From the IMG/VR virus record IMGVR_UViG_2526164632_000038: a stretch of 40,504 bases of DNA; one strand, 5' to 3'. Source of the stretch: a virus (lineage: Duplodnaviria; Heunggongvirae; Uroviricota; Caudoviricetes). The notes beneath the pieces are model-generated. The model was not told the origin of the DNA and searched no databases. It saw only the letters and a list, made by a program, of their open reading frames with translations. Of the stretch, positions 2,029 to 38,438 are shown piece by piece. Numbering within the stretch: position 1 is the first letter of the stretch; the number at the start of each line of letters is the position of its first letter. The translations under genes and the position numbers were made by a program.

Positions 2029-3188
2029 GACTCCACCGTTATAACGATATTTTCCGGGGTACAGGACGCAGATTCGTTGTATCTGATATCAATGTTTGAT
2101 GACGACAAAGCCCCCGGAGATTTCCCAATCGTCAGTTCCTGAATATCGTAATAGCGTGCATTCCCGCCACTCACCACGCCAAGATTCGCCGGTGAGTAAA
2201 TGCGACTTAAAAGGACCGAATCACCAATCATCAGACTATTGATATAGTCGGAAATAGCCTGCTGGATCTGCTGCCCTATCTGTGAGGTATAACCCGTAAA
2301 AACTTTTAATTTAATCCGGGCATAAACAGGCACATCACTGGAACGCGAGAATTTGATTACATGGGGATTGCCGTATTTATCCGGAACCGTAACGGATGTT
2401 GTACCGTGAGTGGCTGTCCCCTGGCCTTTATTCCCTCTGATAGCCTGAGCAATATCCATCACATCACCGCCATCCACAATTACAGCAACAGAGTGTGGCG
2501 GTAACCCGTTACCGTCCTCCGAACCAGTATCGTTTTCATAGAGTTTGTGGCGGGTTACACCGGTAACATTAGAAACAGCACCATCCAGTGCTTCAAATGG
2601 GGTTATTGATGGCAACGCAACACTTTGCGACTGGCGGATACGTAACTCCGCATCAGTTTCTGCCGGAGAGCCAACAGTAGCCGCAGCAGGATTAGTTACC
2701 GAAACCCAGCCACGGGTTGGCGTATTAATTTCAGTGATAGTTCCAGCCAGCGCCGCCACTGCACCACTGACGGAACATGTTGCGGTCGCCATCACTGTAC
2801 CATCCACGCCGACCACCACTGAAGCAGGCAAACGCCATATCACACTATTACTGTCTTTCACGCTGCCATTAATGATGGTTGTTCCGGCAGTTCCTGTAAG
2901 AAGCAAATCAACCGTAGAATTCGTCGCGCCTTTACGTGAAATACCATTTATTTTCACGTTACTGGTCAGTGCGGCCCCATAGCCGGTTGCCGGTGAAAAA
3001 CAGTTGTAGACAGTTATCGCAGTATTATTGGCATCATGAATCGCCAGCGCCATCAGAGCCACCATCTGGCCGTCTTTACTATCCGGTTCGAGGTAGGTAG
3101 ACTGGCCCCCTGAATCTCCAGACAACCAGTATCACTTAAATAAGTGATAGTCTTAATACTAGTTTTTAGACTAGTCATTGGAGAACAG

Positions 3189-3554
3189 ATGATTGATGTC
3201 TTAGGGCCGGAGAAACGCAGACGGCGTACCACACAGGAAAAGATCGCAATTGTTCAGCAGAGCTTTGAACCGGGGATGACGGTCTCTCTCGTTGCCCGGC
3301 AACATGGTGTAGCAGCCAGCCAGTTATTTCTCTGGCGTAAGCAATACCAGGAAGGAAGTCTTACCGCTGTCGCCGCCGGAGAACAGGTTGTTCCTGCCTC
3401 TGAACTTGTTGCCGCCATGAAGCAGATTAAAGAACTCCAGCGCCTGCTCGGCAAGAAAACGATGGAAAATGAACTCCTCAAAGAAGCCGTTGAATATGGA
3501 CGGGCAAAAAAGTGGATAGCGCACGCGCCCTTATTGCCCGGGGATGGGGAGTAA
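3189..3554 (+). CDS. insC: IS2 transposase OrfA
   Basis: [41 protein letters not shown]... HTH protein; A6G slippery heptamer at 3506..3512 for -1 frameshift into orfB. Confidence 0.85.
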
Positions 3555-4417
3555 GCTTAGTCAGCCGTTGTCTCCGGGTGTCGCGTGCGCAGTTGCACGT
3601 CATTCTCAGACGAACCGATGACTGGATGGATAGCCGCCGCAGTCGTCACACTGATGATACGGATGTGCTTCTCCGTATACACCATGTTATCGGAGAGCTG
3701 CCCACGTATGGTTATCGTCGGGTATGGGCGCTGCTTCGCAGACAGGCAGAACTTGATGGTATGCCTGCGATCAATGCCAAACGTGTTTACCGGATCATGC
3801 GCCAGAATGCGCTGTTGCTTGAGCGAAAACCTGCTGTACCGCCATCGAAACGGGCACATACAGGCAGAGTGGCCGTGAAAGAAAGCAATCAGCGATGGTG
3901 CTCTGACGGGTTCGAGTTCTGCTGTGATAACGGAGAGAGACTGCGTGTCACGTTCGCGCTGGACTGCTGTGATCGTGAGGCACTGCACTGGGCGGTGACT
4001 ACCGGCGGCTTCAACAGTGAAACAGTACAGGACGTCATGCTGGGAGCGGTGGAACGCCGCTTCGGCAACGATCTTCCGTCGTCTCCAGTGGAGTGGCTGA
4101 CGGATAATGGTTCATGCTACCGGGCTAATGAAACACGCCAGTTCGCCCGGATGTTGGGACTTGAACCGAAGAACACGGCGGTGCGGAGTCCGGAGAGTAA
4201 CGGAATAGCAGAGAGCTTCGTGAAAACGATAAAGCGTGACTACATCAGTATCATGCCCAAACCAGACGGGTTAACGGCAGCAAAGAACCTTGCAGAGGCG
4301 TTCGAGCATTATAACGAATGGCATCCGCATAGTGCGCTGGGTTATCGCTCGCCACGGGAATATCTGCGGCAGCGGGCTTGTAATGGGTTAAGTGATAACA
4401 GATGTCTGGAAATATAG
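3512..4417 (+). CDS. insD: IS2 transposase OrfB (DDE catalytic domain)
   Basis: 301-aa ORF overlapping orfA in the -1 frame; IS3-family integrase-like core. Confidence 0.85.
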
Positions 4418-4559
4418 GGGCAAATCCAGTAGGCATCACTGCCATAAATCTGCTGAAAATAGCTAATCAGGGTGCTGAGTATCGTCTGATAATCAGGCGC
4501 ACTGATCCCCTCCGCGGTTACCTTTGCAGATAAACCGAGAGAATCAAGGTTCAGAGCCA

Positions 4560-5706: not shown

Positions 5707-5900
5707 TCTACAGGAACAACTCTAAGTTTATTTTTCTGTTTAAAATTGTCCAACTCAGGTTCTTTAACGCTTTCTGTCATGTAATCCAATCCACCAAAAG
5801 GTACTTCAAGCATTATACTGCTTTCATAATCAGCCATGGATTGCTCTGCTTGCGTTGGCTTGCTTTGCTGTGAGTTGTCATTATTTGATGTTGTCATCAA

Positions 5901-6122
5901 CTATGCCTTATTTATCAAAAGAAAAGTAACCGATAATATGAAAAAACCGAAAGATAACGCAATTCCTTCAAAAAGATAACGAGCGTAAACTGCCTTTTCT
6001 TTATGAAGACTTTCGATCAATTCAACAGCTTTACCATACTGAAACATATGGTATCTAAGCGTTTTAATTTTATCACCGTAAAATAAAAAATCATGCTCTT
6101 CTTTTCGCTTATGAATAGGCAT
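5901..6122 (-). CDS. Small membrane protein (73 aa) in AT-rich cassette
   Basis: ATG at 6122 (MPIHKRKEEHDFLFYGDK...) directly after the upstream stop; C-terminal hydrophobic helix LFEGIALSFGFFILSVTFLLI; AT-rich. Confidence 0.35.
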   Translation of the reverse strand: MPIHKRKEEHDFLFYGDKIKTLRYHMFQYGKAVELIESLHKEKAVYARYLFEGIALSFGFFILSVTFLLINKA

Positions 6123-6136
6123 TTTTGGTATATCTT

Positions 6137-6454
6137 TCAGTCCCCAAGTACGCCATAGGAAAAAAAGCACATAACAATACAAACAAAGCACAGATATGCA
6201 CAAAGTATAGATAATGTTAAAAACCAATTACTCTTTAGCCCACTTTTGAAATCAACAGTCCCAAATACAGCCAGTAGAGCAGAGGTTTCTACAGCTAAAA
6301 TAGCAAGAAGGTAGTTAACTTTGTCCTCAAGACGACGATATGTTGATTTTGCTTCCTCATATCTATCTTTATAATATGACGAAATAAAATCAGCGCCTAT
6401 AGTCTCAATTGCCTTTTGTTCTTCTGTTGTATCTATTGACGAACGCTTGCTCAT
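6137..6454 (-). CDS. Membrane protein (105 aa) in AT-rich cassette
   Basis: MSKRSSIDTTEEQKAIE... with two hydrophobic segments (LLAILAVETSALLAVFGTV; WFLTLSILCAYLCFVCIVMCFF); AT-rich. Confidence 0.45.
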   Translation of the reverse strand: MSKRSSIDTTEEQKAIETIGADFISSYYKDRYEEAKSTYRRLEDKVNYLLAILAVETSALLAVFGTVDFKSGLKSNWFLTLSILCAYLCFVCIVMCFFSYGVLGD

Positions 6455-31890: not shown

Positions 31891-32520
31891 TCACTCAGGA
31901 ATCTTAATCTTTCTCAATTCTTTATTTAGTTCACAGATCTTTTTCTTAGACGGGAAAGTATCATACATCCAAAAACCAACAGTCTCTAAAACTATTATCA
32001 TAACCATATACACAAGATAATTTAAAAGGCCTTCATTTTGCCCTATGGAAATAATGCAGATAATAGAAAAAAGGGTAAACAGCACAAAACACAGAAAGGA
32101 AAACAGACGACTAATAATAAATAAAAAACCTGAAAAATCAACATTAATAAAAAACACTCCGTTATCTTTCTCTATATAATTCTGAAGCTTAATCAACTGA
32201 TTTATATACTGTCTTTTTTCTAATCTATTGCAAATGTAAATAACATCTCTTCGGTTATAAGATGATTGCAATTTCAGCGCATCACGAATAATTTTATCAT
32301 TTATTCTTTTTTCTATGGCACTCTTATCCTCCTCATCCAGATAACGTTCATACTTAACTAAATATAAAATTAACTTCTTAACATATTTAGGCTCTTTATA
32401 CTTATAATTAAAAATGATCTTTCTTATCCAGACTCCCATAACAATCAAACATGAAAAAATATATCCAGCTATTTTCTCCAGATGCTCTGTATGGTCAATC
32501 AAGTATTGGATCATATGCAT
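31891..32520 (-). CDS. AT-rich reverse-oriented membrane protein (209 aa), unknown function
   Basis: Opposite strand to the surrounding operon; very AT-rich; N-terminal TM (IAGYIFSCLIVMGVWI), Lys-rich central domain, C-terminal TM pair. Confidence 0.55.
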   Translation of the reverse strand: MHMIQYLIDHTEHLEKIAGYIFSCLIVMGVWIRKIIFNYKYKEPKYVKKLILYLVKYERYLDEEDKSAIEKRINDKIIRDALKLQSSYNRRDVIYICNRLEKRQYINQLIKLQNYIEKDNGVFFINVDFSGFLFIISRLFSFLCFVLFTLFSIICIISIGQNEGLLNYLVYMVMIIVLETVGFWMYDTFPSKKKICELNKELRKIKIPE

Positions 32521-32566
32521 AATTAATCTTTTAATCAGTTAATAGAATAAAAACCAAGGTAAACAC

Positions 32567-34630
32567 ATGTCCAATATACTATGGGGCGACCTGGAAACCT
32601 ATTGCGAAATCCCTATTACGAACGGTACCCATGCGTATGCCGAAGGCGTTGAAGTGATGCTTTTCGCATGGGCTATCAACGACGGGCCAGTAAACGTGTG
32701 GGATATCACTGCCGGTGGTGGTATTCCACACGGCTTATACGAAGCAATCGCAGACCCTGAAACCCTGCTTTATTTCCATAACTCTCACTTCGACCGCACC
32801 GTTCTGCGTTATGCAATGCCGCGCCTGGCACCGCCAGTCGAACGTTGGCGCGACACAATGGTGCAGGCGCTGGCGCACGGTCTCCCGGGGTCTCTGGGGG
32901 AACTCTGCGAAGTACTAGGCGTCCCGCAAGACAAAGCGAAGGACAAAGAAGGTAAAGCGCTGATCCAGCTGTTCTGTAAGCCACGCCCGAAAAACAGCAA
33001 ACTGCGCCGGGCCACCAGCAAAACCCACCCGGAAGAATGGCGGCGCTTTGTTGCTTACGCCGGACTGGATATCGAGGCAATGCGCGAAGTCTATAAACGT
33101 CTGCCGAAGTGGAATTATCAGGGGACAGAACTGGCGCTCTGGCATCGTGATCAGCAGATCAATGACCGGGGCGTCTGCATGGACGTGGAACTCGCACGCG
33201 CTGCGATCGACGCGGTAGACCAGGAACAAAAGCGCCTGGCAAAGCGTACACAGGAAATGACTGATGGCGAAGTGCAGGCAGCCACACAACGAGACGCGTT
33301 GATTAAGCACATTGTTGAATCCTACGGTGTGGAGCTACCAGACATGCAACGCAGTACTCTGGAACGTCGTATTGCCGACCCCGATTTACCATCTGCCGTG
33401 AAAGAACTGCTGGCTATCCGCCTGCAGGCCAGTACTACCAGCACCAGTAAATACAAGGCACTGATGAAAGGCGTAAGCCACGACGGGCGCTTACGCGGTA
33501 CGCTACAGTTCTGCGGGGCGTCACGTACCGGTCGTTGGGCCGGACGGCTATTCCAGCCCCAGAACCTTCCCCGCCCTTCACTAAAACAGGAACAAATAGA
33601 CGAAGGCATCGAAGCACTGAAAGCCGGATGTGCAGACCTGCTGTTTGACAATATCATGGAACTAACCAGTTCAGCGTTACGTGGCTGCATTATCGCGCCA
33701 ACAGGCAAAAAGCTGGTGGTAAGTGACTTGTCGAACATTGAAGGCCGTATGCTGGCATGGCTGGCGGGAGAAGAATGGAAACTGAATGCATTCAGAGAGT
33801 ACGACGCCGGAACGGGTCCGGACTTATATAAACTGGCGTATGCAAAAGCTTTCGATATTGCACCAGATGATGTTGATAAACACATGCGTCAGATCGGTAA
33901 AGTCATGGAACTCGGTCTGGGTTATGGTGGTGGTGTGTCGGCCTTCATCACTTTTGCACTGGTTTACGATCTCGATCTCGACGAGCTGGCGAACGCCGCA
34001 CTACCAAACATTCCCCGCGATGTTATCCGCGAGGCGAAAAGCTGGTACGACGAATCGGTTAAACGCAAGTCAACCTACGGGCTTTCTGAACGGGTATTTA
34101 TCGCCTGCGACTCACTTAAACGTCTCTGGCGCCGGGCGCATCCCGCGACCTGTGATTTCTGGTACGAACTGGAGCGCACCGTCCGCACTGCAATCGCCAC
34201 ACCGCAAAAAACATTGTATTGCGGTTATCTTAAAATCCGCCGCGATGGCGCGTGGCTGCGCATACAGCTACCATCCGGACGCGCTGTATGCTACCCGTCT
34301 CCGGTTATCGAAAAAGGGAATATCACCTACATGGGGGTTAACTCTTATTCGCGTAAATGGCAACGACTCAAAACCTACGGCGGAAAGCTGGTGGAGAACA
34401 TCACCCAGGCGGCCGCCCGCGACATTCTGGCCGGAAACATGCCGCTTATCGAAGATGCCGGTTACAGCATTGTGCTGACGGTACACAACGAGGTGATCAC
34501 CGAAGCACCTGACACAGAAGATTTCAACGATAAAGCGCTTTCCGCGCTTCTCTCCACTGACCCCGAATGGGCGCCCGATATCCCACTGAACGCTGGCGGT
34601 TTTGAGGCGTACCACTACAAAAAAGATTGA
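32567..34630 (+). CDS. Family A DNA polymerase with 3'-5' exonuclease domain
   Basis: Exo motifs DLETY, HNSHFD, YAGLD; pol motif A DLSNIEGR; motif [15 protein letters not shown]; motif C position reads VHNEV. Confidence 0.8.
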
Positions 34631-34694: not shown

Positions 34695-35456
34695 ATGCAG
34701 GAACTAACTGAAATGCCGATCACCTATCCATACCCGAGAGAAACTTTTCCTGACTTTTTGAGGGAGTGTGGGTTCACCAATTTTTCCCACGAACAGCGTG
34801 AGACTTGTGACTGCTATCGTTTAACGAATGGCGTAATTGTTAACCTTTACACCACCCGGACCATTCAGTTTCAAGGTAACCCTCAAGAACGTCCCAATGT
34901 TGAAACTGCAATAATGACCCATTTAGGAACGCCGCCCACGGCAACACCACTAGCCGTAGAACAGCCATCTGAGCTCCCCAAAAAGATATTCATTGTTCAC
35001 GGCCATGACCATACTGCAAAGGAGCAACTTGAGCTAATCCTTCATAAACTTGGATTACCAGACCATTTCATTTTGCAGAATACGGGAGGGACTGGACTCA
35101 CCATTATTGAAGAGCTTGAACGTGAAATTGGGCAAGGACAAACTGCTACCCGTTTCGGGATTGTTCTTTTGACACCTGATGATATGGGATACTCAAAGCG
35201 CGCCGGTGAAGCAGAAATCCAACCCCGCGCAAGACAGAACGTTGTACTCGAGATGGGTATGCTTCTTTCGTCCTTAGGGCGCAGCAATGTAGCAATCCTT
35301 CAGAAACAGCACCTAGAACAGCCTTCTGATGCTAACGGGATTTTGTATCTGAATTTCAACGACCATGTACGTGAAACAGTTCCTCGTCTAGTGCAACGGT
35401 TACAAAATTCTGGTTTCGAATTTACACAAGCTCAAATAGCTAACGCTTCCTCGTAA
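34695..35456 (+). CDS. TIR-like domain protein (candidate defence effector)
   Basis: C-terminal region KIFIVHGHDHTAKEQLELILHKLGLPDHFILQNTGGTGLTIIEELE...LLTPDDMGY...PRARQNVVLEMGMLL matches my recollection of the TIR-like nucleotide-binding family (FIVHGHD start, LTPDD, conserved Glu in NVxxExG); N-terminal 95 aa unassigned. Confidence 0.55.
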   Translation: MQELTEMPITYPYPRETFPDFLRECGFTNFSHEQRETCDCYRLTNGVIVNLYTTRTIQFQGNPQERPNVETAIMTHLGTPPTATPLAVEQPSELPKKIFIVHGHDHTAKEQLELILHKLGLPDHFILQNTGGTGLTIIEELEREIGQGQTATRFGIVLLTPDDMGYSKRAGEAEIQPRARQNVVLEMGMLLSSLGRSNVAILQKQHLEQPSDANGILYLNFNDHVRETVPRLVQRLQNSGFEFTQAQIANASS

Positions 35457-35519: not shown

Positions 35520-35654
35520 ATGTCATTTAAATACCGGGACAGTCCGCTTTATTACCGGACTGTGCGGGAGGCTTTGCACCTTGAACAGTCCGGCGGGTAC
35601 GACCGGGCGATGCAGGTCTGGGCCAAAGCGAACGTCGGTTTGATTTTTGTCTGA
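35520..35654 (+). CDS. Small ORF (44 aa), possible small regulator
   Basis: MSFKYRDSPLYYRTVREALHLEQSGGYDRAMQVWAKANVGLIFV; no strong SD; below the ORF-track cutoff. Confidence 0.2.
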   Translation: MSFKYRDSPLYYRTVREALHLEQSGGYDRAMQVWAKANVGLIFV

Positions 35655-35690
35655 TGCAGAACATGCGCGAAAAGCGTAAGGAGGTGGACG

Positions 35691-35885
35691 ATGTCTAATA
35701 TCGATAATAAGGGTTGGGGGTTCCCCGCTCTGTCAAAAAAAGCACATTTCTTTAATTCGGGGGAAGCCATATCACTATGCGGAAAATGGATGTTCATAGG
35801 TATCAGGATTGATGAATGGCATGACCATCCTGAGAACTGCGCTATCTGCATGAAGAAACGCAAAAAGCAGGAAGGCGAAAGCTAA
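35691..35885 (+). CDS. Small Cys-containing protein (64 aa)
   Basis: Strong SD AAGGAGGTG 5 nt upstream of ATG; stop overlaps the next start. Confidence 0.45.
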   Translation: MSNIDNKGWGFPALSKKAHFFNSGEAISLCGKWMFIGIRIDEWHDHPENCAICMKKRKKQEGES

Positions 35886-36172
35886 TGGCCTATGAACGTG
35901 AAAACCTAATCGAAAAGCACCTCGTCGCTGAAGTAAAAAAGGCTGGCGGGGTTGCCTTTAAGTTCGTATCCCCCGGTCGCCGCTCGGTACCAGATCGCAT
36001 TGTTCTGCTACCCGGCGGTCGTATCATTTTCGTTGAATGTAAATCCCCCGGCAAGCCACCACGGCCTGACCAGTTGCGCGAACACGGACGGTTGCGCGCG
36101 CTGGGCTTTACCGTAGTGGTGCTGGATAGCAAAAATCTGGAGGCCATTATTTTAAGCCGCAATAAAGGATAA
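35885..36172 (+). CDS. VRR-NUC-type PD-(D/E)xK nuclease
   Basis: 95-aa protein with VPDRIV ... FVECK motif. Confidence 0.55.
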   Translation: MAYERENLIEKHLVAEVKKAGGVAFKFVSPGRRSVPDRIVLLPGGRIIFVECKSPGKPPRPDQLREHGRLRALGFTVVVLDSKNLEAIILSRNKG

Positions 36173-36184
36173 AAGACTTATGCT

Positions 36185-36766
36185 TTAATCCGTATTTTTA
36201 ACACGTATTTCGAAACACCCTTTTAATTTAGCTATTTCCTTTTTAGAGGACATGATTGTGAATCTCATCCCTTTTAAATCATTAACAAATTCAAATTTTG
36301 CGCTATTTGACTCACAATCACCAACAACAAAACCACTACCAAATGAATTGAGCAACACTTTAGTATTACTACCATCTACCATATAATATTCGTTATTTTT
36401 AAATGCAGTAACCTTCCCGAATGTATAGCTCAATATCAACAACGTTATCACCCCTAAAGGAAAAGCTGACTTTAGGATTTTTAAATCGATATAATAAAAT
36501 ACGTTCTTATACTCTGCAAGCCTCCCAAATTTTCTAATGCTCTCCATATGATGTTCGTGTCTCTTACTATGGATTGGCATGGACACCACATTGTGATAAT
36601 TCAACAAAAGCATAGCAAATAATAAAATATCCTGAACACTCATCACAGAAGTTTTGGAGAAATAACCAAAAGGCCAATGAAATCCTATTATACAAATATT
36701 AGCCATTAGCATAACAACTATAAATACAATAAATGGAACATAATATTTCCCTTTCAAATCAAACAT
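36185..36766 (-). CDS. AT-rich reverse-oriented membrane protein (about 193 aa), unknown function
   Basis: Three hydrophobic segments in the N-terminal half, soluble C-terminal 80 aa; ATG at 36766 overlaps the upstream gene stop by 8 nt. Confidence 0.5.
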   Translation of the reverse strand: MFDLKGKYYVPFIVFIVVMLMANICIIGFHWPFGYFSKTSVMSVQDILLFAMLLLNYHNVVSMPIHSKRHEHHMESIRKFGRLAEYKNVFYYIDLKILKSAFPLGVITLLILSYTFGKVTAFKNNEYYMVDGSNTKVLLNSFGSGFVVGDCESNSAKFEFVNDLKGMRFTIMSSKKEIAKLKGCFEIRVKNTD

Positions 36767-36980
36767 CAACGCCGCATATAAGGCGCCGAGAAATAAAAAC
36801 TAAAAACAAAAGCCACACAGCCGAATACAATAGCGTATTTAAGTCTATTTTAATAAAAAGGTCTGGATAGCCATAATACGATGCAACACCTTTCTGAAAA
36901 GAATATGCCATCGCATAAGCTAACGCTGAAAACATAGTTAATAAAGAAACTTGCTTTGTAAATATTTTCGCCAGGGGCAT
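36759..36980 (-). CDS. AT-rich small membrane protein (73 aa), first gene of the reverse-oriented pair
   Basis: Two hydrophobic helices (VSLLTMFSALAYAMAYSF; LLYSAVWLLFLVFI). Confidence 0.45.
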   Translation of the reverse strand: MPLAKIFTKQVSLLTMFSALAYAMAYSFQKGVASYYGYPDLFIKIDLNTLLYSAVWLLFLVFISRRLICGVDV

Positions 36981-37043
36981 ACCCGCCTCCGTTAGTTATA
37001 TATATAGAGAGAGAAGTGACCATATTCTACCATAGGTGTATTA

Positions 37044-38438
37044 ATGAATAGCATATTCCACCCCAGAGTTTATCAAAACCTCATAATCAATCACCAAACT
37101 AACATTCTGCGCGGCAACATCTGGGCGGGTATGGGAATGGGTAAAACCGTGGCAACGCTCACTGCGCTGGAAGATCTCTTTATGGCAGGGGCAGAAACAT
37201 GCCCCGCACTGGTCCTCGCGCCGCTGCGCGTGGCTGCCAGCACATGGCCGGATGAAGCACTGAAGTGGGGACATTTGCGCAATATCGAGGTGCAGCCAAT
37301 TATTGGTAATGCCAAAGCGCGCTCTATGGCGCTGACGAACAGCAACGCAAGCGTGTTCACCATCAACTACGATAACCTTGTCTGGCTGATTGAAGAATTG
37401 GGAGAACGATGGCCGTTCGGTACTGTCATTCCAGATGAAAGCACCCGGCTAAAATCCTTCCGGCTGCGCGGTGGTGGTAAGCGCGCGGCGGCGCTGGGCA
37501 AAGTGGCGCATAAGTATGTCCGGCGCTGGATAAATCTCACCGGTACGCCAGCACCGAACGGCCTGGTAGATTTGTGGGGACAATCGTGGTTTGTGGACCA
37601 GGGGCAACGTCTCGGGCGCACTTACGGCGCGTTTACCTCACGCTGGTTCAACTCGATACAGTTTCCGGGGCAGAGCTGGACCAAACTGGAGCCTTTTGCT
37701 CACTCACAGGGTGAAATACAGCGAGCGTTAGCCGATGTAACCCTCTCGCTGGATGCGGCCGACTGGTTCGATATCAAAGACCCCATCCATAACGTAATCC
37801 GCGTGGATATGCCACCGAAGGCCCGTCAGCAGTATCGTGAAATGGAAAAGGAAATGTTCCTCGAGCTGAATGGCGAAGGCATCGAAGCACCGAACGCCGC
37901 GGCAAAGACACTGAAGTGTCTGCAAATCGCCAGCGGCGCAGTATACACAGATGACACCGGAAGTTGGTCAGAACTGCATGACACCAAACTACAGGCGCTG
38001 GACAGCATACTGACCGAAGCAGCTGGCGCACCTGTGCTGGTTGCTTATCACTGGAAACACGATCTTGAACGCTTGCTTAAAGCATTCCCTCGCGGTCGTC
38101 ACCTCGACCAGGATCCACAGACACTGCGCGACTGGAATTCCGGAAAGATTCCTGTTCTCTTTGCACACCCAGCCAGCGCGGGCCACGGCCTGAACATGCA
38201 GGACGGCGGAAATATACTGGTATTTTTCTCACACTGGTGGGACCTGGAGCAATATCAGCAAATTATTGAACGTATCGGCCCCACCAGGCAGATACAGGCC
38301 GGACACAATCGTCCGGTATTTATTCACCACATTATTGCTGCCGACACTATGGATGAAATGGTGATGGAGCGGCGCAACTCAAAACGAACAGTGCAGGACA
38401 TCCTGCTCGATGCCATGAAAAAGAGAGGTATAGCATGA
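37044..38438 (+). CDS. SNF2/DEAD-like superfamily 2 helicase
   Basis: Walker A GMGMGKT, motif II IPDEST, C-terminal helicase domain. Confidence 0.7.
   Translation: MNSIFHPRVYQNLIINHQTNILRGNIWAGMGMGKTVATLTALEDLFMAGAETCPALVLAPLRVAASTWPDEALKWGHLRNIEVQPIIGNAKARSMALTNSNASVFTINYDNLVWLIEELGERWPFGTVIPDESTRLKSFRLRGGGKRAAALGKVAHKYVRRWINLTGTPAPNGLVDLWGQSWFVDQGQRLGRTYGAFTSRWFNSIQFPGQSWTKLEPFAHSQGEIQRALADVTLSLDAADWFDIKDPIHNVIRVDMPPKARQQYREMEKEMFLELNGEGIEAPNAAAKTLKCLQIASGAVYTDDTGSWSELHDTKLQALDSILTEAAGAPVLVAYHWKHDLERLLKAFPRGRHLDQDPQTLRDWNSGKIPVLFAHPASAGHGLNMQDGGNILVFFSHWWDLEQYQQIIERIGPTRQIQAGHNRPVFIHHIIAADTMDEMVMERRNSKRTVQDILLDAMKKRGIA

What the first reader, a model, noticed from the sequence alone, without database searches (positions are those of the whole stretch)
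36185..36980. Second AT-rich reverse-oriented locus: overlapping two-gene membrane-protein pair
Two minus-strand ORFs (73 aa and about 193 aa) overlap by 8 nt and sit between the VRR-NUC and helicase genes. Both are AT-rich and predicted membrane proteins; the larger has a soluble C-terminal domain. A small plus large membrane pair in opposite orientation inside a replication operon looks like an accessory cassette. An alternative is a single gene split by a frameshift.
Basis: seen in the sequence. Interest (0 to 1): 0.65.

Follow-up and report, generated by a model that had tools for sequence, protein, structure and literature searches.

The report
One membrane-protein gene split by frameshift
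The "two overlapping membrane-protein genes" are one 265-residue prophage accessory gene, broken in this sequence by two missing bases, and its function is still unknown.

Summary
The two minus-strand ORFs exist as described: 73 aa and 193 aa, with an 8-nt overlap and 32.7% GC against about 53% in the flanks. They are not a gene pair. In every relative examined the locus is one 798-nt ORF of 265 aa. That covers 5 complete E. coli genomes aligned in full, 9 checked across the break, 7 IMG/VR prophages, and about 900 contigs holding intact alleles.

The window differs by two one-base contractions in adjacent T6 runs (T6-AG-T6 to T5-AG-T5, window 36795-36806). I could not decide whether this is a real pseudogenising change or a homopolymer sequencing artefact.

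The intact protein is a polytopic inner-membrane protein. The AlphaFold2 model (pLDDT 90.6) shows five helices and a small C-terminal beta domain, probably periplasmic. Precomputed annotation places it in Pfam PF27470 ("TfpB"). It has no solved structural relative and no hit to a known defence family.

It is a solitary, AT-rich, reverse-oriented accessory gene in a variable slot between the VRR-NUC and SNF2-helicase genes of a prophage next to yfhL. A related prophage has a 27%-identical homologue in the same slot, while its flanking genes are 70-77% identical.

Function is inferred only: an envelope-acting protein made in lysogens, possibly for superinfection exclusion. Interest is low to moderate.

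The parts
36185..36980 (-). Whole disrupted gene: 796 nt here, 798 nt (265 aa plus stop) in relatives. It encodes a TfpB-family (PF27470) polytopic membrane protein.
   Evidence: Alignment A1 with five E. coli genomes; RefSeq CDS WP_001127515, WP_001127518, WP_021529155 and WP_044190089; GC 0.327.
36759..36980 (-). N-terminal fragment ORF, 73 aa. Residues 1-59 are native (helix 1, the conserved loop motif and half of helix 2), followed by 14 out-of-frame residues and a stop.
   Evidence: Profile hit E 8.5e-26. The precomputed Pfam hit PF27470:TfpB sits on this exact 73-aa product.
36185..36766 (-). C-terminal fragment ORF, 193 aa from an internal Met (residue 73 of the intact protein). It carries helices 3-5 and the C-terminal beta domain.
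   Evidence: Profile hit E 3.9e-45.
36795..36806 (-). Frameshift site. The plus strand reads A5-CT-A5 (gene strand T5-AG-T5), where all relatives read A6-CT-A6. These are two separate one-base contractions, a net -2, at codons 60-63.
   Evidence: These are the only two A/T runs of 6 or more in the gene.
36655..36655 (-). Single substitution (plus strand T here, C in relatives) giving E110K. More distant family members also have K at this position, so it is probably neutral.
36986..36990 (-). Shine-Dalgarno GGAGG, 5 nt upstream of the ATG at 36980.
   Evidence: Read directly from the sequence.
37024..37032 (-). Possible extended -10 promoter element TGGTAGAAT for the gene's own transcript. It overlaps the first codons of the divergent helicase gene. 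This is a consensus match only.
   Evidence: Read from the sequence. The promoter scanner, which also requires a -35 hexamer, did not list it.
36996..37014 (.). (TA)n(GA)n microsatellite in the 63-nt divergent intergenic region (the presumed 5' UTR). The number of TA units differs between strains.
   Evidence: Alignment A5; match lengths of 1001-1013 nt.

Best explanation
Shown: the locus is one gene, not two. Its intact form encodes a 265-aa protein that precomputed annotation places in Pfam PF27470 ('TfpB'). In this sequence the reading frame is broken at codons 60-63 by two one-base contractions in adjacent T6 runs, leaving a 73-aa N-terminal ORF and a 193-aa C-terminal ORF that starts at an internal Met.

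Shown: the gene is a solitary, AT-rich, reverse-oriented accessory gene in a variable cargo slot between the VRR-NUC and SNF2-helicase genes. The host element is a prophage with a PolA/VapE replication module, integrated next to yfhL.

Inferred from the model, hydropathy and the positive-inside rule: the protein is an inner-membrane protein with five helices. The N-terminus faces the cytoplasm. The ~70-residue C-terminal beta domain faces the periplasm and carries a conserved Cys223/Cys256 pair.

Inferred from context only: it is transcribed from its own promoter in the lysogen and acts at the envelope. The most likely role is to interfere with entry of superinfecting phage DNA, following the logic of P22 SieA. 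I put about 0.35 on this functional part. In the window's allele, helix 2 is destroyed and the conserved N-terminal motif is separated from the rest, so the gene is probably non-functional if the frameshift is real.

The confidence of 0.85 below applies to the 'one gene, frameshift-split, TfpB-family accessory membrane protein' part. It does not apply to the function.
For: One ORF elsewhere:
- Five complete E. coli genomes annotate a single 798-nt CDS at the same place. Alignment shows the window lacks exactly two T's.
- Nine of nine closest genomes read 103 nt where the window reads 101.
- Seven IMG/VR prophage contigs match residues 1-265 continuously.
- Intact 265-aa alleles occur on roughly 900 contigs. 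The exact split products occur on only 1-2 Logan contigs.

Family:
- There are 7 close clusters of 260-265 aa in Enterobacteriaceae.
- A profile search found 74 representatives, nearly all 230-290 aa and covering both halves.
- The annotation PF27470:TfpB appears on the window's own 73-aa product and on homologues.
- dN/dS between E. coli alleles is 0.28, which indicates a protein under purifying selection.

Structure:
- The AlphaFold2 model from 65 sequences has pLDDT 90.6 and pTM 0.86. It shows helices at 13-36, 47-76, 81-99, 116-152 and 167-195, then five strands and a C-terminal helix.
- The distribution of charged residues fits an N-in, C-out topology.

Accessory nature:
- GC is 0.33 in hosts of 0.46-0.56 GC, for five of the six homologues measured.
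- The gene is always solitary and often reversed inside prophages of at least three types.
- A related prophage has a 27%-identical homologue in the same slot, with helicase, PolA, VRR-NUC and integrase 70-77% identical.
- The slot carries other reverse-oriented cargo elsewhere, including PDC-S42.
- The neighbouring slot carries a TIR protein matching PDC-S35.
- A strong Shine-Dalgarno sequence and a plausible extended -10 element lie upstream.
Against: - There are no functional data of any kind.
- There is no hit in PADLOC. The only PHROGs hit is a family of unknown function.
- Distant family members sit in heterogeneous contexts, partly housekeeping and across many phyla, with no conserved neighbour. 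A phage-related role therefore need not be general.
- I could not run the PF27470 model myself, because the local Pfam copy lacks it.
- The promoter is a consensus match only.
- The two fragments could in principle be co-translated, because the overlap allows re-initiation, and could still assemble.
Confidence: 0.85

Rival explanations
1. The frameshift is a sequencing or assembly artefact (under-called homopolymers), and the organism actually has the intact 265-aa gene.
For: - Against the near-identical FDAARGOS_1059 prophage (about 39 kb), all 6 indels lie in homopolymers. All 4 window-specific ones are one-base contractions of A/T runs of 6 or more.
- One of these also splits a second AT-rich gene, at window 6166.
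- No single mutational event produces T5-AG-T5 from T6-AG-T6 (read).
- None of the 17 of 5,426 complete E. coli genomes that carry the locus, including IAI1, shows the variant wherever I read the junction: 9 directly and 2 more of the 94% allele.
- The run accessions that carry the variant are early ones. From memory, that era used pyrosequencing; I did not verify the platform.
Against: - The same double contraction is present in contigs from two different runs that differ from each other by two SNPs. This fits an inherited allele.
- In the 20.6-kb Logan contig, every other gene, core or prophage, has its normal length.
- The four contractions are not spread evenly over the 45 A/T runs of 6 or more. 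P = 0.011 for two or more falling in this gene, and P = 0.0003 for all four falling in the two AT-rich loci.
Confidence: 0.45
2. The frameshift is real: the gene is a recent pseudogene in this lineage of a decaying prophage.
For: - The variant is shared by two runs with different SNP backgrounds.
- The prophage is already damaged here by an IS2 insertion in the baseplate J gene.
- A further substitution (E110K) sits in the same gene.
- Other genomes hold independent truncations of this gene: P0095 (-1 in the second T6 run), P0093 (48 aa), P0094 (77 aa) and P0086 (138 aa).
- The indels are concentrated in dispensable AT-rich loci.
Against: - Two independent contractions 8 nt apart are needed where one would inactivate the gene.
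- The indel-to-substitution ratio of 4:5 against the closest relative is high for real divergence.
- The allele is absent from every complete genome where the junction was read.
Confidence: 0.5
3. This is a genuine two-gene operon of a small and a large membrane protein, translationally coupled through the 8-nt overlap.
For: The ATGTTTGA overlap resembles coupled genes. The 193-aa fragment starts in a predicted cytoplasmic loop, so on its own it would keep a consistent topology.
Against: - No relative has two ORFs with this junction.
- The last 14 residues of the 73-aa ORF are out-of-frame translation of helix 2.
- Residues 60-72 of a conserved helix are lost.
Confidence: 0.03
4. The intact protein works like the TfpY/FimB/TfpB type IV pilin accessory proteins. 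That is, it binds the membrane-embedded N-terminal helices of pilins or pseudopilins and modulates type IV filament or type II secretion assembly in the lysogen.
For: - The Pfam family name TfpB attaches to the window's product and its homologues.
- Published TfpY-like proteins are 235-245 aa, with N-terminal transmembrane helices and a periplasmic C-terminal domain. [quoted passage not shown]
- I recall that Moraxella TfpB and Dichelobacter FimB are pilin-adjacent accessory proteins. This is from memory.
Against: - No pilin-like gene lies near the gene in the window, in 12 contexts of homologues, or in 12 genomes from many phyla.
- The modelled architecture (five helices, one small beta domain and a C-terminal helix) differs from the published description of three helices and two beta sheets.
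- I made no direct sequence or structure comparison with TfpY, TfpZ or FimB.
Confidence: 0.12
5. The site is a programmed frameshift or a phase-variable switch at the T-runs, controlling expression of the membrane protein.
For: The break lies in two T runs. One other genome has a -1 change in the second run (P0095). A variable (TA)n tract lies in the 5' region.
Against: T6 is short for slipped-strand phase variation (general knowledge). About 900 contigs are in frame, against a handful that are not. A -2 shift restores no frame. No RNA family matched the region. The only stem-loop listed inside the gene is a terminator-like consensus hit just downstream of the break, in a scan that is not above its shuffled background.
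Confidence: 0.03

Closest known systems
Pfam PF27470 'TfpB' family (hypothetical proteins such as RefSeq WP_001127515 and WP_001127518)
   Same: Sequence family. The window's N-terminal product and its homologues carry the precomputed PF27470 hit. The intact E. coli alleles differ from the window's gene only by the two missing bases and one to a few substitutions (92-99% protein identity between alleles).
   Different: The window's copy is split. The family has no demonstrated function in this context. The hit is confined to the N-terminal part: the 193-aa fragment has no Pfam hit.
TfpY/TfpZ/TfpX(PA7)/FimB-like type IV pilin accessory proteins (Qaderi et al. 2025, PMC11841053)
   Same: Similar size (235-245 aa against 230-290 aa). 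Both have N-terminal transmembrane helices, a periplasmic C-terminal beta-rich domain and no recognisable catalytic domain. The family name suggests a link.
   Different: [quoted passage not shown] This one is never near a pilin gene. The modelled helix count and beta-domain layout also differ. Homology was not tested directly.
P22 SieA superinfection-exclusion protein (PMC10883804)
   Same: Both are solitary prophage-encoded polytopic inner-membrane proteins. [quoted passage not shown] That parallels the 27% identity seen here between alleles in the same slot.
   Different: There is no sequence relationship: the PHROGs scan gave only a family of unknown function. SieA is 162-164 aa with three transmembrane segments and a conserved cytoplasmic motif. 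This protein has five helices and a periplasmic domain. No exclusion phenotype is known for it.
Frameshift-split genes at homopolymer runs (pseudogenes or assembly errors)
   Same: The breaks are one-base length changes in A/T runs of 6. They produce two overlapping ORFs that together equal one gene. A second example lies in the same window at 6166.
   Different: Nothing is different. This is the ordinary explanation of the two-ORF appearance.

Membership tests
Pfam PF27470 (TfpB) | Significant match to the family HMM | tested here: met
   The precomputed hit is unmarked (E <= 1e-5) on the window's exact 73-aa product and on homologues P0005, P0009 and P0053. It is weak or faint on P0007, P0033 and P0012. 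I could not re-run the model because it is absent from the local Pfam copy.
Pfam PF27470 (TfpB) | Single polypeptide of about 230-290 aa carrying both the N-terminal motif region and the C-terminal beta domain | tested here: not met
   The window's copy is split into 73 and 193 aa. All relatives meet this feature.
TfpY/FimB-like pilin accessory proteins | Encoded immediately downstream of a major type IV pilin gene | tested here: not met
   The neighbours here are VRR-NUC and the SNF2 helicase. The called genes flanking homologues in 12 contexts include no pilin family. A pilin N-terminal motif scan of 22 loci from the genome collection, 12 of which encode a family member, found nothing. No pilin family appears among the 25 most frequent Pfam families of 65 neighbouring ORFs.
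TfpY/FimB-like pilin accessory proteins | Three N-terminal helices, a mixed three-stranded sheet with a beta-alpha-beta unit, then a helix leading into a three-stranded antiparallel sheet | tested here: inconclusive
   The AlphaFold2 model (pLDDT 90.6) has five long helices, one five-strand beta domain and a C-terminal helix. It was compared with the published description only, not with coordinates.
TfpY/FimB-like pilin accessory proteins | Detectable sequence or profile homology to TfpY, TfpZ, FimB or Moraxella TfpB | not tested
   No reference sequences were reachable with the tools. The AlphaFold database library was unavailable.
TfpY/FimB-like pilin accessory proteins | Interacts with pilins and promotes pilus assembly | not testable with these tools
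   This needs two-hybrid and twitching or piliation assays.
Known anti-phage defence systems (PADLOC-DB v2) | Match to a defence-protein model | tested here: not met
   No hit for either fragment (E <= 1) or for two intact alleles (E <= 10). The neighbouring TIR gene does hit PDC-S35.
Superinfection-exclusion inner-membrane proteins (SieA type) | Sequence homology to a described Sie family | tested here: not met
   PHROGs returned only phrog_35408 (unknown function) and a marginal hit to another family of unknown function.
Superinfection-exclusion inner-membrane proteins (SieA type) | Prophage-encoded, acts alone, located in the inner membrane, blocks DNA entry | not testable with these tools
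   Prophage location and solitary arrangement are shown. Membrane location is predicted. The exclusion phenotype is untested.
Overlapping two-gene operon | Both ORFs conserved as separate genes in relatives | tested here: not met
   There is one ORF in all relatives.

The most novel reading that the evidence does not exclude
The PF27470-type solitary membrane proteins carried by enterobacterial prophages could be an uncharacterised class of envelope-acting superinfection-exclusion or defence proteins. They occur here, in two kinds of lambdoid prophage, and in small chromosomal insertions. They are always about 33% GC and usually reverse-oriented. In the VRR-NUC/helicase slot they have diverged to 27% identity while the flanking genes remain 70-77% identical. 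They may have been derived from pilin-accessory proteins that recognise membrane-embedded helices.
Probability: 0.25. Interest if true: 0.55.

Novelty: new member of a known kind. Interest (0 to 1): 0.22.

Why it matters
As flagged, it matters little. The "pair" is one gene with a broken frame, and intact copies are already in RefSeq as hypothetical proteins. It is a useful warning that the A/T homopolymer differences in this window create false gene pairs; there is a second case at 5901-6454.

The underlying gene is moderately interesting. It belongs to a widespread family of unknown function and has a confident predicted fold with no solved relative. In these prophages it occupies a cargo slot that elsewhere holds candidate defence genes, and it diverges much faster than its neighbours. 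An exclusion or defence role would add a new single-gene, membrane-level mechanism. It would also give a first function to a family that Pfam names after pilin-associated proteins.

Tried and rejected
- Pfam, PHROGs, PADLOC and NCBIfam scans of the fragments and of intact alleles gave nothing usable. The only results were phrog_35408 (unknown function) and sub-threshold noise.
- A first AlphaFold2 run with 7 sequences was poor (pLDDT 47) and I discarded it. The 65-sequence run was used instead.
- tblastn against deposited phage genomes and plasmids found nothing. Megablast against phages found nothing.
- A scan of GTDB species representatives with the close-family alignment found no relatives. 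Two broader alignments were too divergent for the tool.
- A second word-indexed homologue search with the 65-sequence profile added little.
- A cluster look-up of distant members gave almost no names.
- Literature searches for PF27470, the WP and UniRef accessions and the SRA runs found nothing. Most 'TfpB' hits refer to type IVb pili or to the Acinetobacter motor ATPase, which are unrelated.
- An Rfam scan of 35800-37300 found nothing.
- I considered and rejected a toxin-antitoxin or holin/antiholin-like pair, a programmed frameshift, and phase variation (see the rival explanations).

Full report
**1. The observation**

The minus strand carries an ATG ORF of 73 aa (36980..36759). It also carries an ORF of 194 aa from TTG, or 193 aa from the adjacent ATG (36766..36185). 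The overlap is the 8 nt ATGTTTGA. The ORFs sit between a VRR-NUC gene (35885-36172) and an SNF2-type helicase (37044-38438). Both of those are on the plus strand, inside a replication module. GC is 0.327, against 0.53-0.54 in the two flanking genes.

**2. The pair is one gene**

Megablast of 36100-37100 against 5,426 complete E. coli genomes found the full locus in 17 of them. Match lengths were 1001-1013 nt for the window's 1001. In all five that I opened (IAI1, 14EC029, FDAARGOS_1059, XH993 and strain 48), RefSeq annotates one 798-nt minus-strand CDS of 265 aa at this place, between the same neighbours.

The alignment shows a single cause. Relatives read GTTTTTT-AG-TTTTTT-ATT. The window reads GTTTTT-AG-TTTTT-ATT, so each of two adjacent T6 runs is one base shorter. 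On the window's plus strand this is A5-CT-A5 at 36795-36806.

Translation of the relatives gives ...WLLFFSFLFLGALYAALMFDLKGKYY... The window's 73-aa ORF ends ...WLLFLVFISRRLICGVDV*, so its last 14 residues are out-of-frame. The 193-aa ORF restarts at the internal Met73.

Further support:
- All nine genomes of the closest allele group have 103 nt where the window has 101.
- Seven IMG/VR prophage contigs match residues 1-265 without a break.
- In the 15-billion-protein collection, intact 265-aa alleles are seen on roughly 900 contigs (651, 66, 57, 54 and smaller counts).
- The window's exact 73-aa and 193-aa products are seen on only two and one Logan contigs.
- Each fragment matches a family profile on its own (E 8.5e-26 and 3.9e-45).

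**3. Real mutation or artefact**

The window's prophage is almost identical to that of FDAARGOS_1059. Over about 39 kb there are 5 substitutions and 6 one-base indels, and all 6 indels lie in homopolymers.
- The four window-specific indels are all contractions of A/T runs: 5735, 6166, 36799 and 36801.
- The two FDAARGOS-specific indels lie in C runs. They coincide with genes flagged 'frameshifted' in that record.
- The contraction at 6166 splits another AT-rich gene into two overlapping ORFs (5901-6227 and 6137-6454). That gene is a single 184-aa CDS in FDAARGOS_1059.

This pattern looks like platform error, and no single event converts T6-AG-T6 into T5-AG-T5.

Three observations point the other way:
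- The window is 100% identical over 14.3 kb to a Logan contig of run SRR096442. A contig of a second run, SRR124116, carries the same double contraction but lacks the window's two SNPs at 33969 and 36655. This is what an inherited allele would look like.
- All other genes on that 20.6-kb contig have normal lengths.
- The four contractions are concentrated in two AT-rich accessory loci, which hold only 6 of the 45 A/T runs of 6 or more (P = 0.0003).

Other genomes hold independent truncations of this gene, including a -1 change in the second T6 run. The prophage here also carries an IS2 insertion in its baseplate J gene. I leave the question open at about even odds. Read-level inspection would settle it. 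Either way, this is not a two-gene system.

**4. The intact protein**

There are seven close clusters (57-92% identity), all 260-265 aa. They occur in Escherichia, Salmonella, Raoultella and Enterobacter. An exhaustive profile search over 1.84 billion representatives found 74 proteins at E <= 1e-3. Nearly all are 230-290 aa and match both the N-terminal and the C-terminal parts.

The conserved signature is Y..Y.YQ.G.A.Y.G.P..FI..DL, at the end of helix 1 and the loop that follows. There is also a G...A after the last helix, and a V.L..YG...I.G.C motif in the beta domain.

dN/dS between E. coli alleles is 0.28, so the intact gene is maintained as a protein.

With 65 sequences, AlphaFold2 gives a confident model (pLDDT 90.6, pTM 0.86). 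It has helices at 13-36, 47-76, 81-99, 116-152 and 167-195, strands at 200-243, and a helix at 247-264.

Lys and Arg residues cluster in the N-terminus, in loop 74-82 and in segment 136-166. Loops 37-46 and 100-115 are nearly free of them. The C-terminal domain has the only two cysteines, C223 and C256, which are invariant among close relatives. By the positive-inside rule this indicates an N-in, C-out topology with a periplasmic, possibly disulphide-bonded domain. This is an inference.

**5. Family name**

The local Pfam, NCBIfam and PADLOC copies give nothing, and PHROGs gives only phrog_35408, of unknown function. The precomputed annotation attached to the public proteins lists PF27470, named TfpB. 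This applies to the window's own 73-aa product and to homologues, but not to the 193-aa fragment. The detectable part of the family model is therefore the N-terminal region.

From memory, TfpB is the ORF in the Moraxella pilin inversion region, and it is related to Dichelobacter FimB. The published account of TfpY/TfpZ/FimB-like pilin accessory proteins describes the following (PMC11841053):
- proteins of 235-245 aa;
- three N-terminal transmembrane helices and a periplasmic beta-rich C-terminus;
- sequence similarity concentrated in the helices;
- interaction with major and minor pilins;
- a role in priming pilus assembly;
- no phage-defence effect.

The general plan is similar to the protein here, but two tests do not fit. 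First, the modelled architecture differs (five helices, one beta domain). Second, no family member that I could place is next to a pilin gene:
- not in the window;
- not in 12 contexts of homologues;
- not in 12 genomes recovered with a motif-based DNA scan. These span Planctomycetota, Acidobacteriota, Chloroflexota, a candidate phylum and several Proteobacteria.

The 65 neighbouring ORFs I scanned share no conserved family. Mobile-element markers such as resolvase, relaxase, integrase and HNH appear once or twice each. I file the protein under PF27470 on the annotation evidence. I do not claim that it is a pilin accessory protein.

**6. Genomic role**

The element is a prophage of roughly 40 kb, integrated next to yfhL. 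It has an integrase, a PolA/DUF2800/DUF2815/VapE replication module and myovirus-type tail genes.

The gene is the only reverse-oriented ORF between VRR-NUC and the helicase. It has a strong Shine-Dalgarno sequence and a possible extended -10 element, TGGTAGAAT. It leaves only 12 nt before the convergent VRR-NUC stop codon.

Other E. coli relatives fill the same slot with different reverse-oriented cargo. One has three genes, including a match to the PADLOC candidate PDC-S42 (E 6e-40). Another has a single 108-aa ORF. The neighbouring slot between PolA and VRR-NUC carries a TIR protein matching PDC-S35 here (E 7e-109). In relatives it carries an ATP-binding protein, or YfbU plus a hypothetical protein.

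A more distant prophage of the same type keeps a TfpB-family gene in exactly this slot, at only 27% identity. Its helicase, VRR-NUC, PolA and integrase are 70-77% identical to the window's.

Other homologues are solitary, reverse-oriented genes in lambdoid prophages. One lies between xis and the early-left genes, and another between dinI and the replication genes. Others sit in small chromosomal insertions. All of these are about 0.33 GC in hosts of 0.46-0.56 GC.

**7. Most likely mechanism**

Taken together, this is the profile of a gene expressed in lysogens that acts at the cell envelope and is under diversifying pressure. The best-known analogue in logic is P22 SieA. SieA is a solitary inner-membrane protein that blocks the DNA-delivery conduit and exists in sequence types less than 30% identical (PMC10883804).

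I therefore favour an entry-blocking or exclusion role for the intact protein, at about 0.35. A pilin- or pseudopilin-directed role stands at about 0.12. The remainder is unassigned. None of this is shown. There is no homology to any described exclusion or defence family.

In the window's allele, half of helix 2 is lost and the conserved N-terminal motif is separated from the rest. If the frameshift is real, function is probably lost.

**8. Verdict**

- Observation: confirmed.
- Preferred interpretation (a two-gene pair): rejected.

The gene is a catalogued but uncharacterised family member in a prophage cargo hotspot. Interest as flagged is low. The family itself is a reasonable candidate for experimental follow-up.

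Noticed in passing
window 34695-35456 (+): A 253-aa TIR-domain protein matches the PADLOC candidate system PDC-S35 (E 7e-109) and Pfam CAP12-PCTIR_TIR (3e-31). It occupies a second variable slot between PolA and VRR-NUC. Relatives carry an ATP-binding protein (weak DrmA-like hit), or YfbU plus a hypothetical protein, in that slot instead.
   Followed up: partly
window 5901-6227 and 6137-6454 (-), contraction at 6166; also 5735: A second AT-rich locus shows the same false-pair appearance. An A8-to-A7 contraction splits a gene that is a single 184-aa CDS in FDAARGOS_1059 into two overlapping ORFs. A T6-to-T5 contraction at 5735 lies near the 3' end of the neighbouring small CDS.
   Followed up: partly
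window 3098-4428: A 1331-bp IS2 copy with a 5-bp target duplication interrupts the baseplate J/gp47-family gene. It is absent from the otherwise near-identical FDAARGOS_1059 prophage, so the prophage here is probably defective.
   Followed up: yes
window 36996-37014: A (TA)n(GA)n microsatellite lies in the 63-nt divergent intergenic region between the membrane-protein gene and the helicase. The number of TA units varies roughly from 3.5 to 9 among six strains. Any effect on expression is unknown.
   Followed up: partly
L029 3059-4732 (E. coli CREC-544); L030 3051-3377 (OkiPb01695): In related prophages the VRR-NUC/helicase slot holds unrelated reverse-oriented cargo. One has three genes, including a 292-aa match to the PADLOC candidate PDC-S42 (E 6e-40). 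Another has a single 108-aa ORF. The slot behaves as an accessory or defence hotspot.
   Followed up: partly
window 7326 and 17174: At these two C runs the window is one base longer than FDAARGOS_1059. In that record the corresponding genes (a hypothetical protein and a DUF2213 protein) are flagged as frameshifted. The reference genome therefore seems to carry its own homopolymer errors or mutations.
   Followed up: partly
window about 35520-35698 (+): The small ANR-family regulator gene upstream of VRR-NUC is annotated as frameshifted in IAI1, 14EC029 and FDAARGOS_1059. In CREC-544 it is intact (216 nt). It looks like a shared pseudogene in this prophage lineage.
   Followed up: no
window 31950-32560 (-), GC 0.28: Another very AT-rich, reverse-oriented gene lies between the DUF2815 gene and PolA. 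It is 209 aa in FDAARGOS_1059 and has no Pfam hit. The gene at the equivalent position in a related prophage carries a weak PF27729 (UCP028583) hit.
   Followed up: no
L027 5001-9135: In one metagenomic contig a distant family member is followed on the same strand by an 1106-aa protein with no Pfam hit and preceded by MazG-like and N6/N4-methylase genes. This could be a defence-island context.
   Followed up: no
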